This document shows positions 21,634 through 22,087 of a DNA stretch of 64,000 nt, one piece after another. The notes beneath the pieces were generated by a model, which ran no database searches, had not been told where the DNA came from, and saw only the letters and a program-made list of their open reading frames with translations. The number at the start of each line of letters is the position of its first letter. Positions within the stretch are counted from its first letter, which is position 1. The position numbers and the translations under genes are program-made. Source of the stretch: Escherichia coli O157:H7 (lineage in GTDB: Bacteria; Pseudomonadota; Gammaproteobacteria; Enterobacterales; Enterobacteriaceae); the NCBI RefSeq assembly GCF_013167455.1, contig NZ_CP038328.1; one strand, 5' to 3'.

Positions 21634-22087
21634 TTACATCCCTCCACATAAACCGCAGAACAGAAGTGACTCTGTTTTTTTGTAAAGAAATGCCGCCATA
21701 TAAAGATGTCGAACAAAAAACAACCACAATCATCATCTTTTTAATACTAACAGCATTAAAAACAACAAGTTACCATCATGATGATGATGACGATAAAATC
21801 ACAAAAATGCGCCTTTTTCCGCGCCCGCCCGCCCCGTGTTCAGGCCCACCCCACCAGGAGGACCCGCAAAATGATAATGGTTATCATTTGCAACAAAATC
21901 CAGTTTCTTCCACCATCGCACCGGACTGGCGACTATGAGGGGACAACACCGCGCTCCGTTAACGCGGTAAACCCCGGTGTGTATCGTTTTTGATTATCCC
22001 CGCACACTCTCGCAGAGGAGTCTCCCTGTCTGGCTGCGGTCTCTGTTAATGCAGGAATACGGTGACGATACGGCGCATCAGCAAAAC

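What the first reader, a model, noticed from the sequence alone, without database searches (positions are those of the whole stretch)
21634..22087. Gene-free region upstream of terminase small subunit: probable cos / packaging site
About 450 bp with no credible ORF, AT-rich tracts, a catcatgatgatgatgac repeat and a GC-rich block (cgcgcccgcccgccccg) lie where lambdoid phages place cosQ-cosN-cosB.
Basis: inference. Interest (0 to 1): 0.25.

Follow-up and report, generated by a model that had tools for sequence, protein, structure and literature searches.

The report
Lambda-type cos site of a prophage
This stretch holds the DNA-packaging (cos) site of a lambda-like, VT1-Sakai-type prophage of E. 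coli: an expected, ordinary feature, with one small oddity, a cutting site one base pair off the usual lambda spacing.

Summary
The genes run on the minus strand: Rz/Rz1 lysis genes, then a 454-bp gap, then the small terminase (Pfam DUF1441), a gpA-type large terminase and a lambda-family portal.

On the minus strand, about 170 bp of the gap (21696-21865) matches the lambda cos layout element by element:
- cosQ GGGTCCT.
- A 24-nt spacer.
- ACG^GGGCGG..., the left half of cosN.
- A conserved I2-like block.
- A cosB-like array: R3, an IHF-like site, an inverted R2 and a degenerate R1.

The site aligns in register with the lambda cos, the ends of the phage cdtI record and the published putative cosN of mEp213/LLS. 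The window is 100% identical here to prophage VT1-Sakai.

The remaining ~200 bp (21890-22087) is the tail of the lysis module, not cos.

The RefSeq "hypothetical protein" that spans cos is probably spurious.

One oddity remains. In this cosB/TerS clade the distance between the conserved ACG^ and ^CGCGG nick contexts is 10 or 11 bp (11 here), never the 12 bp seen in the other clades. The right-hand nick and the overhang length (11, 12 or 13 nt) therefore cannot be read from sequence.

This is a new member of a known kind, of low interest.

The parts
21859..21865 (-). cosQ heptamer GGGTCCT (packaging-termination signal in lambda)
   Evidence: It is identical to lambda bp 48473-48479 in the alignment. 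It is nearly invariant across 72 distinct relatives.
21835..21858 (-). 24-nt spacer between cosQ and the predicted top-strand nick, ending in ...ACACG
   Evidence: The spacer is 23 nt in lambda, 22 nt in the mEp460/cdtI clade and 24 nt in this clade. The TCC.GGTGGGGTGG part is over 90% conserved.
21819..21837 (-). cosN: ACG^GGGCGGGCGGG(C)GCGG. The top-strand nick is predicted between 21835 and 21834. The bottom-strand nick is predicted after 21824, 21823 or 21822, giving an 11-, 12- or 13-nt 5' overhang. The 12-nt candidate end is GGGCGGGCGGGC (21823-21834).
   Evidence: It is in register with lambda bp 1, with the first base of the phage cdtI record, and with the published putative cosN of mEp213/LLS (PMC12315714; alignment).
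21793..21818 (-). I2-like conserved block GGAAAAAGGCGCATTTTTGTGATTTTAT between cosN and cosB
   Evidence: It is 90-100% conserved across clades. It occupies the place of lambda I2, which is needed for packaging termination (PMC4669245).
21777..21792 (-). R3-like small-terminase binding element CGTCATCATCATCATG (bases 43-58 from the predicted left end)
   Evidence: It forms a perfect 9-nt inverted repeat with R2 (I7). The same motif sits in the same place in Fels-1, mEp213 and L058. A different motif sits there in clades with a different TerS.
21760..21772 (+). IHF-like site AAACAACAAGTTA (I1 equivalent) between R3 and R2
   Evidence: It has one mismatch to WATCAANNNNTTR and is the only such site in 21634-21900. 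It aligns with lambda I1 and with a perfect IHF consensus in the mEp460 clade.
21724..21740 (-). R2-like element AAAGATGATGATTGTGG, inverted relative to R3
   Evidence: ATCATCATC on the + strand at 21729-21737. It is conserved in Fels-1 and L058.
21696..21711 (-). Degenerate R1-like element CGACATCTTTATATGG, preceded by the conserved block TTGTTTTTTGTT (21712-21723)
   Evidence: It aligns with GTTCATCATCTTC in Fels-1 and GTTCGTCATCATGG in L058. The preceding T-rich block is over 90% conserved. This is the weakest of the assignments.
21157..21633 (-). Small terminase subunit (158 aa, Pfam DUF1441), preceded by a GGAGG ribosome-binding site at 21641-21645
   Evidence: Pfam DUF1441 3.8e-48. PHROG 141 'terminase small subunit' 6e-66. 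The predicted N-terminal strand-helix-helix-wing-helix resembles MerR-type winged HTH and phage TerS DNA-binding domains only weakly.
19037..21160 (-). Large terminase subunit, lambda gpA type
   Evidence: Pfam GpA_ATPase 1.8e-81 and GpA_nuclease 6.2e-84.
21867..21891 (-). Palindrome AAATGATAACCATTATCATTT immediately left of cosQ. It resembles a Fur box and is conserved in lambda. Its role is unknown and it is probably not essential for cos.
   Evidence: I9. It matches the Fur consensus at 16/19 positions, the only such match in the window, with 0.03 expected. It is present in lambda, mEp213 and cdtI and absent in the mEp460 type.
21892..22087 (-). Post-Rz tail of the lysis module; not part of cos
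   Evidence: It is shared at 94-97% identity with Stx phages that carry unrelated packaging modules, such as BP-4795 with an HNH endonuclease and a different terminase. There is no Rfam family, no terminator, and no RNA fold better than shuffles, z = -0.33.

Best explanation
The gap contains the cohesive-end (cos) site of a lambda-like prophage of the VT1-Sakai (Sp15) type. The account below reads along the minus strand, which is the direction of packaging.

Initiation, inferred from the lambda model:
- The DUF1441-type small terminase binds the R3, R2 and R1 elements of cosB.
- IHF bends the DNA at the site between R3 and the inverted R2.
- This anchors the gpA-type large terminase on cosN, about 43 bp to the left.
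- The large terminase makes staggered nicks at cosN. The top-strand nick falls after ...ACG. This produces a G-rich 5' overhang that begins GGGCGG.

Packaging then runs from cosN through the terminase genes into the head and tail genes.

Termination, also inferred: at the next cos on the concatemer, cosQ (GGGTCCT), cosN and the I2-like block direct the terminating cut.

Shown here: the sequence elements, their order, spacing and orientation, their homology to lambda cos, and their conservation pattern.

Inferred by analogy with lambda: protein binding, nicking, and the exact overhang. A 12-nt overhang, GGGCGGGCGGGC, is the most likely. 11 or 13 nt are possible.
For: 1. Context. The order is Rz/Rz1, a 454-bp gap, TerS, gpA-type TerL, then a lambda-family portal, all on the minus strand.

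2. Local alignment to lambda cos. It matches the palindrome, cosQ, ACGGGGCGG and the I1 region in the same order. The cosQ...cosN pattern is unique in the window, with 0.00 expected.

3. Register with other phages.
- The phage cdtI record begins GGGCGGGAGCGT CGCGGAAAAAGG and ends ...GGGTCCTTCCGGTGGGGTGGCCTGCCACG, the same register as lambda bp 1.
- The published putative cosN of mEp213/LLS, GGGCGGCGCGCT (PMC12315714), aligns to the same columns.

4. Conservation pattern typical of lambda-like cos. Against relatives, cosQ-to-I2 is 78-82% identical, the TerS genes 64-76%, and cosB about 55%. cosB motifs track the TerS clade: ATCATCATC here and in Fels-1, CACCATCACCACC in CP-1639/ASU11, and CGTCATCACCAC in the mEp460 type.

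5. Mosaic evidence. Stx1_9793 carries the same Rz-to-cosQ DNA joined to a genuine lambda cosN/cosB/Nu1.

6. cosB anatomy. There is a perfect inverted ATCATCATC pair 42 nt apart flanking an IHF-like site. This matches the R3-I1-R2(inverted)-R1 layout described for lambda-like phages (PMC9026076).

7. Indirect physical hints.
- The ASU11 genome was assembled from virion DNA prepared by tagmentation (PMC9751135). It lacks exactly the 44 bp that span the predicted cosN, compared with CP-1639.
- Sp15 DNA becomes DNase-resistant (packaged) after mitomycin C induction (PMC2669165).
Against: - No virion ends have been mapped for this prophage or for any member of its cosB/TerS clade.
- The distance between the conserved ACG^ and ^CGCGG contexts is 11 bp here, against 12 in lambda, mEp213, cdtI and mEp460. 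One canonical feature of cosN is therefore not met as written.
- R1 is degenerate.
- TerS has no BLASTP similarity to lambda Nu1. Its structural resemblance to winged-HTH TerS domains is weak: Foldseek E is 0.08 or worse and mean pLDDT is 72.
- Sp15 is described as defective in morphogenesis. Its marker was transferred only through chimeras with Sp5 (PMC2669165). Function of this particular copy is therefore not demonstrated.
- The basis on which the cdtI depositors chose base 1 could not be checked.
Confidence: 0.85

Rival explanations
1. It is a cos homologue that no longer works. The 1-bp departure from the 12-bp spacing in cosN, and the degenerate R1, would be decay in a defective prophage.
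For: The ACG^...^CGCGG spacing is 11 rather than 12. Sp15 has multiple morphogenetic defects, and all 22 transductants analysed were Sp5/Sp15 chimeras (PMC2669165). In lambda, even 3-bp changes in cosN-cosB spacing are severe (PMC9026076).
Against: - No site in this clade has 12 by that count. Spacings of 10 or 11 are the rule, in 77 of 78 IMG/VR sites, and occur in several sequence forms. This looks like a clade trait rather than a lesion.
- Read with a CGG right flank, the majority form gives a canonical 12-nt end with CG at both nicks.
- Sp15 DNA is found in DNase-resistant particles.
- The right half of lambda cosN tolerates changes, and bottom-strand nicking is set by anchoring to cosB (PMC4669245).
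- cosQ, the left half of cosN and I2 are all intact.
Confidence: 0.1
2. The region encodes a small protein: the RefSeq hypothetical WP_001302882.1 on the + strand at 21666-21938, and/or the 55-aa ORF at 21936-22100 on the minus strand.
For: PGAP calls the 90-aa ORF. The 55-aa ORF matches phrog_6954, labelled 'Rz-like spanin', at 3.5e-17.
Against: - The 90-aa ORF runs antisense to the late operon and across cosN.
- Close relatives that differ by 1-bp indels in cosN read a different frame downstream...RPPAPCSGPPHQ... against ...RRPPRVQAHPTRR....
- It has no credible Pfam match (best E 0.035, below the family cut-off) and no PHROG match.
- The 55-aa ORF is cut by a TAA in BP-4795.
- It has no similarity to the ORF in the same position in mEp460.
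- PHROG families are built from predicted ORFs that share this DNA.
Confidence: 0.04
3. It is a pac site or other start point for headful packaging, or merely a regulatory spacer (a promoter or Fur-controlled region) with no role in packaging.
For: A Fur-box-like palindrome lies at 21873-21891. One weak promoter-like match lies on the + strand.
Against: The large terminase is gpA-type. The sequence is homologous to lambda cosQ/cosN. The count of promoter-like sites equals the shuffle expectation, and no terminator was found. mEp460-type phages lack the palindrome yet keep the rest.
Confidence: 0.01

Closest known systems
Bacteriophage lambda cos (cosQ-cosN-I2-cosB with R3-I1-R2-R1)
   Same: - The cosQ heptamer is identical.
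- The left half of cosN is identical (ACG^GGGCGG).
- The order and orientation of all subsites are the same.
- The IHF-like site aligns with I1.
- The site sits just upstream of TerS and a gpA-type TerL.
   Different: - TerS belongs to a different sequence family (DUF1441) and has no BLASTP match to Nu1.
- The R elements have a different sequence, ATCATCATC core, and start about 7-10 bp closer to cosN: base 43 against lambda R3 at bases 50-65 (PMC9026076) or its CGTTTCC core at base 53 by my own count of the lambda sequence.
- The cosQ-cosN spacer is 24 nt, not 23.
- The ACG^...^CGCGG distance is 11 bp, not 12.
- Only about 220 bp separate Rz from cosQ, against about 2 kb with bor and other ORFs in lambda.
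cos of lambdoid phages with a DUF1441-type TerS: cdtI, mEp213/LLS, mEp460, Fels-1, Gifsy-2
   Same: - The TerS family is the same, at 36-58% identity.
- The cosQ...ACGGGGCGG...CGCGG(A/G)AAA..GGC...TTTTT backbone is the same.
- Fels-1 and mEp213 share the CATCATCATC R3 motif.
- mEp213/LLS have a published inferred 12-nt end, GGGCGGCGCGCT (PMC12315714).
   Different: Those phages keep the 12-bp spacing and a 22-nt cosQ spacer. Fels-1 and Gifsy-2 have AGGTACT in place of GGGTCCT. cosB of the mEp460 and cdtI types differs in sequence.
Phage N15 'simple' cos (a single R3)
   Same: cosQ and cosN are lambda-like (PMC4669245).
   Different: N15 has only R3. The window has an inverted R2 and an IHF-like site, which is the complex lambda-type cosB.

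Membership tests
lambda-like cos site | Lies between the lysis cassette and TerS plus a gpA-type TerL, oriented towards the terminase genes | tested here: met
   The ORF map and Pfam give Rz (Phage_lysis), DUF1441 TerS, GpA_ATPase and GpA_nuclease, and Phage_portal_2.
lambda-like cos site | 7-bp cosQ (GGGTCCT) about 23 bp upstream of the top-strand nick | tested here: met
   The exact heptamer lies at 21859-21865, 24 nt from ACG^.
lambda-like cos site | Left half of cosN is conserved (CG^GGGCGG) | tested here: met
   ACG^GGGCGG is identical to lambda, cdtI, mEp213 and mEp460.
lambda-like cos site | 12-bp stagger, with a 5'-CG-3' flanking each nick | tested here: inconclusive
   The distance from ACG^ to ^CGCGG is 11 bp here. 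Across the clade it is 10 bp in 50 sites, 11 in 27 and 7 in one; it is 12 in the other clades. A 12-nt stagger is still possible, but with GC rather than CG at the bottom-strand nick.
lambda-like cos site | cosB of R3-I1-R2-R1, with R2 inverted and an IHF site between R3 and R2 | tested here: met
   There is an inverted perfect 9-mer pair (I7). An IHF-like site with one mismatch lies between them. R1 is degenerate but aligned with clear copies in Fels-1 and L058. This is met at the sequence level only.
lambda-like cos site | TerS with an N-terminal winged helix-turn-helix that binds the R elements | tested here: inconclusive
   The AlphaFold model has mean pLDDT 71.6 and shows strand-helix-helix-wing-helix at residues 9-55. 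The best Foldseek matches are MerR-type DNA-binding domains and phage TerS N-domains (7lw0, 7lwr, 6hn7), but at E 0.08-0.3. There is no sequence match to Nu1 or to any PDB chain.
lambda-like cos site | Virion DNA has unique ends with complementary 5' overhangs at this site | not testable with these tools
   Only indirect hints exist: where the cdtI record begins and ends, the 44-bp gap in the ASU11 virion assembly, and packaged Sp15 DNA.
headful (pac) packaging start | Large terminase of a headful type, with no cosN/cosQ homology | tested here: not met
   TerL is gpA-type. cosQ and cosN homology is present.

The most novel reading that the evidence does not exclude
In this cosB/TerS clade the cosN core varies in length, while the distance from cosQ to the I2/cosB side is kept constant. 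The ACG^...^CGCGG distance is 10, 11 or once 7 bp, and never the 12 bp seen in the other clades examined. The cosQ spacer is 2 nt longer, so cosQ-to-CGCGG stays at 34-35 bp.

If the nicks follow their local CG contexts, these phages make 10- or 11-nt cohesive ends, or 13 nt under the other reading. Co-resident lambdoid prophages of one O157 cell would then carry ends of different lengths. If instead the stagger is fixed at 12 nt, this terminase places at least one nick by measuring from cosB or cosQ rather than by reading cosN. Either outcome would be a natural experiment on how a lambda-type terminase sets its cut.
Probability: 0.2. Interest if true: 0.4.

Novelty: new member of a known kind. 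Interest (0 to 1): 0.15.

Why it matters
It mainly improves annotation.
- It places the cos site of a VT1-Sakai-type prophage to the base. That site is not annotated in the stretches of AP000400 or the RefSeq genome that were examined.
- It flags a RefSeq "hypothetical protein" as probably spurious.
- It shows which 170 bp would be needed for transduction, cosmid-like mobilisation, or hijacking by satellites.

The cosN spacing variation within one clade is a small lead. It could be tested to learn how lambda-type terminases position their nicks. It also bears on whether co-resident O157 prophages can package or complement one another.

Tried and rejected
- Rfam, at permissive E-values, gave only a chance-level PrrF match: 22.8 bits against a gathering score of 90.
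- The promoter and terminator scan gave one weak + strand promoter-like site, equal to the shuffle expectation, and no terminator.
- The RNA fold of the post-Rz segment was no better than shuffles, z = -0.33. The DNA fold of the cos segment gave z = -3.8, which only reflects the inverted repeats already described.
- BLASTP of TerS against lambda Nu1 found no alignment. A profile search of PDB sequences found nothing below E 0.1.
- The 55-aa ORF compared with mEp460 gp58, which has the same position overlapping the Rz stop, showed no similarity.
- mEp460 and mEp213 records were first taken as cos-started genomes. They start at the TerS ATG, so their ends say nothing about cos.
- No phage record or IMG/VR contig of the window's own clade begins or ends at the site.
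- Papers that could not be read: Vahanian et al. 2017 on natural cosN variation, Asakura et al. 2007 on phage cdtI, and Yokoyama et al. 2000 on VT1-Sakai (found only as a citation). I therefore cannot say whether the 10/11-bp spacing or this cos site has already been described.
- No held paper contains both 'Fur' and 'cosQ'.

Full report
**Observation**

- catcatgatgatgatgac is at 21774-21791.
- cgcgcccgcccgccccg is at 21820-21836.
- GC drops to 0.28-0.39 across 21600-21800.

All flanking genes are on the minus strand.
- Rz: 22088-22555, Pfam Phage_lysis 4.9e-50.
- Embedded Rz1-like ORF: 22150-22335, assigned from its position inside Rz and the H28/H29 annotations.
- Small terminase: 158 aa, 21157-21633, Pfam DUF1441 3.8e-48.
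- Large terminase: lambda gpA type, 19037-21160, GpA_ATPase 1.8e-81 and GpA_nuclease 6.2e-84.
- Portal: lambda family.

The window is 100% identical over 21500-22200 to prophage VT1-Sakai (AP000400.1) and to E. coli 2013C-4830. Over a larger span it follows VT1-Sakai only up to about window 26988. I therefore call it a VT1-Sakai-type late region, not Sp15 itself.

**What it is**

Read on the minus strand, the gap aligns with the lambda cos region.

```
lambda  GATGATAATCATTATCACTTTACGGGTCCTTTCCGGTGATCCGACAGGTTACG|GGGCGGCGACCT|CGCGGG
window  AAATGATAACCATTATCATTTTGCGGGTCCTCCTGGTGGGGTGGGCCTGAACACG|GGGCGGGCGGGC|GCGG
```

- cosQ, GGGTCCT, is exact and lies at 21859-21865.
- The left half of cosN, ACG^GGGCGG, is exact.
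- The pattern GGGTCCT-N18-30-ACGGGGCGG occurs once in the 64 kb, with 0.00 expected.

Further downstream the alignment picks up lambda's I1 region: GTCATAACTTAATGTTTTTA against GATGGTAACTTGTTGTTTTTA.

**Relatives**

A protein-pattern scan of IMG/VR with an alignment of DUF1441 TerS proteins returned 80 loci. Together with phage records, these gave 72 distinct upstream sequences. Their alignment shows islands of near-invariance:
- cosQ and the following TCC.GGTGGGGTGG.
- ACGGGGCGG.
- CGCGGAAAAAGGC...TTTTTG.
- The R3 position.
- A T-rich block, TTGTTTTTTGTTC.

Three independent anchors fix the register.
- The phage cdtI record starts GGGCGGGAGCGT|CGCGGAAAAAGG and ends ...GGGTCCTTCCGGTGGGGTGGCCTGCCACG. 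This is the homologue of lambda bp 1 and bp 48502.
- The published inferred cohesive end of LLS/mEp213, GGGCGGCGCGCT (PMC12315714), falls in the same columns.
- One IMG/VR relative (L058, TerS 61% identical) carries the literal lambda cosN, GGGCGGCGACCT, in that position.

The conservation pattern is the one described for lambda-like phages, where cosQ, cosN and I2 are conserved and cosB carries specificity (PMC4669245).
- cosQ-to-I2 is 78-82% identical between the window and relatives.
- The TerS genes of those relatives are 64-76% identical.
- cosB is about 55% identical.

**cosB**

A perfect inverted 9-mer pair lies at 21729-21737 and 21780-21788, with 42 nt between the arms. These are two of only three ATCATCATC copies in the window.

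The pair flanks the single IHF-like site in the region: AAACAACAAGTTA at 21760-21772, with one mismatch to WATCAANNNNTTR. That site aligns with a perfect consensus, TATCAATCTATTA, in the mEp460 clade and with lambda I1.

This matches the R3-I1-R2(inverted)-R1 layout of lambda-like phages (PMC9026076).

R1 (21696-21711) is degenerate here. It aligns with clear third copies in Fels-1 (GTTCATCATCTTC) and L058 (GTTCGTCATCATGG).

The R motifs change with the TerS clade.
- ATCATCATC in this clade and in Fels-1.
- CACCATCACCACC in CP-1639/ASU11, where TerS is 77% identical.
- CGTCATCACCAC in the mEp460 type, where TerS is about 56% identical.

Meanwhile CP-1639 keeps this window's cosQ-cosN-I2 almost unchanged. 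Co-variation of cosB with TerS, and not with cosN, is what a TerS recognition array predicts.

R3 starts at base 43 from the predicted left end. Lambda R3 is given as bases 50-65 (PMC9026076); by my own count of the lambda sequence its CGTTTCC core starts at base 53.

**The small terminase**

- It has no BLASTP similarity to lambda Nu1.
- It has no PDB sequence match.
- It matches PHROG 141, 'terminase small subunit', at 6e-66.
- A moderate-confidence model (mean pLDDT 71.6) has a strand-helix-helix-wing-helix N-terminus.
- Its best Foldseek matches are MerR-type DNA-binding domains and phage TerS N-domains, but only at E 0.08-0.3.

I count this as weak support.

**Mosaic and physical hints**

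Stx1a phage Stx1_9793 carries the same post-Rz DNA, palindrome and cosQ. These are joined to a true lambda cosN, cosB and Nu1. The cosQ here is therefore interchangeable with lambda's own.

Phage ASU11 (ON416862) is an infective siphovirus. Its genome was assembled from virion DNA prepared with Nextera Flex (PMC9751135). Relative to CP-1639 it lacks exactly 44 bp, from 8 nt left of the predicted nick to 36 nt right of it. A loss of terminal bases followed by joining of the ends would produce that gap. A real deletion of cosN in a viable phage would be hard to explain.

Sp15 DNA becomes DNase-resistant after induction (PMC2669165).

None of these maps the ends of this prophage.

**The oddity**

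In lambda, mEp213, cdtI, mEp460, L056, L058 and L059, the distance between ACG^ and ^CGCGG is 12 bp.

In all 78 IMG/VR sites that share this window's I2/R3 sequence, the distance is:
- 10 bp in 50 sites.
- 11 bp in 27 sites, including the window's GGGCGGGCGGG form and a GGGCGGGTCGG form.
- 7 bp in one site.
- 12 bp in none.

The cosQ spacer is 24 nt in this clade, against 22 in the mEp460/cdtI clade and 23 in lambda. The cosQ-to-CGCGG distance therefore stays at 34-35 bp.

The 10-bp form can also be read as a canonical 12-nt end, ACG^GGGCGGGCGGCG^CGG, with CG at both nicks. On that reading the window has one extra base.

According to Feiss and colleagues, the right half of cosN tolerates change, and bottom-strand nicking is set by anchoring to cosB (PMC4669245). 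A 12-nt end, GGGCGGGCGGGC, therefore remains my best guess. 11 or 13 nt cannot be excluded.

I could not read Vahanian et al. 2017, so I do not know whether this variation has been described.

**What is not cos**

The stretch 21892-22087 is shared at 94-97% identity with Stx phages whose packaging modules are unrelated. An example is BP-4795, which has an HNH endonuclease and a different terminase.
- It has no Rfam match.
- It has no terminator.
- It has no RNA structure signal.

Two ORFs in or beside the gap are doubtful.
- The RefSeq hypothetical protein on the + strand (21666-21938) changes frame downstream of cosN between near-identical relatives. It has no credible family match; the best Pfam hit is E 0.035, below that family's cut-off.
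- A 55-aa minus-strand ORF overlaps the Rz stop and matches a PHROG labelled 'Rz-like spanin'. It is interrupted in BP-4795.

**Verdict**

This is an ordinary lambda-type cos site belonging to a DUF1441-TerS/gpA-TerL packaging module. It can now be placed to the base at 21696-21865, with cosN at 21819-21837. It is a new member of a known kind. The only point of curiosity is the cosN spacing in this clade.

Noticed in passing
window 21867-21891 (-): A palindrome, AAATGATAACCATTATCATTT, lies immediately left of cosQ. It matches the 19-bp Fur-box consensus at 16/19 positions. It is the only such match in the 64 kb, with 0.03 expected. The homologous palindrome sits at the same place in lambda, mEp213 and cdtI and is missing in mEp460-type phages. 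No held paper links Fur and cosQ.
   Followed up: partly
window 21666-21938 (+): RefSeq/PGAP annotates a 90-aa hypothetical protein (WP_001302882.1) running antisense across cosB, cosN and cosQ. Close relatives with 1-bp cosN indels read a different frame downstream, so it is probably a spurious call.
   Followed up: yes
window 21936-22100 (-): A 55-aa ORF starts 13 nt before the Rz stop. It matches phrog_6954, labelled 'Rz-like spanin', at 3.5e-17. It is cut by a TAA in BP-4795. It is unrelated to the ORF in the same position in mEp460.
   Followed up: partly
L173 (ASU11, ON416862.2 22990-23600) versus L170 (CP-1639): The deposited genome of the infective Stx2d phage ASU11 lacks 44 bp spanning the predicted cosN. 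This is probably an end-joining artefact of a virion-DNA assembly, which would make the record incomplete at its physical ends.
   Followed up: partly
L134 2390-2444 and 13645-13699 (IMG/VR contig 2548876696_000006): Two copies of this clade's cosN-I2-R3 sequence lie in the same orientation 11.2 kb apart on one contig. Only the second is followed by an intact 158-aa TerS ORF. This could be tandem or rearranged prophage remnants, or a small cos-bounded element.
   Followed up: no
L175 1760-2250 (Stx1_9793, LC645428.1): The same post-Rz DNA, palindrome and cosQ as in the window are joined to a near-identical lambda cosN, cosB and Nu1 gene. This puts a mosaic junction between cosQ and cosN.
   Followed up: yes
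L008/L009 (mEp460_4F5) versus L002 (mEp460): The mEp460_4F5 assembly has a cosN core 2 nt shorter than mEp460: GGGAGCGCGG against GGGAGCGGCGCGG. Its record starts 5 nt left of the predicted nick. Whether this is a real variant or an assembly artefact is unknown.
   Followed up: no
L171 (Fels-1), L172 (Gifsy-2), L058: These relatives have AGGTACTCC where the others have cosQ GGGTCCTCC. cosQ is described as showing no apparent natural variation among lambda-like phages (PMC4669245).
   Followed up: no
window beyond about 26988: Identity to VT1-Sakai (99.7%) covers only window 12000-26988 of the 12000-36000 query. The early and toxin region of this prophage therefore differs from Sp15. I did not check whether stx genes are present.
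   Followed up: no
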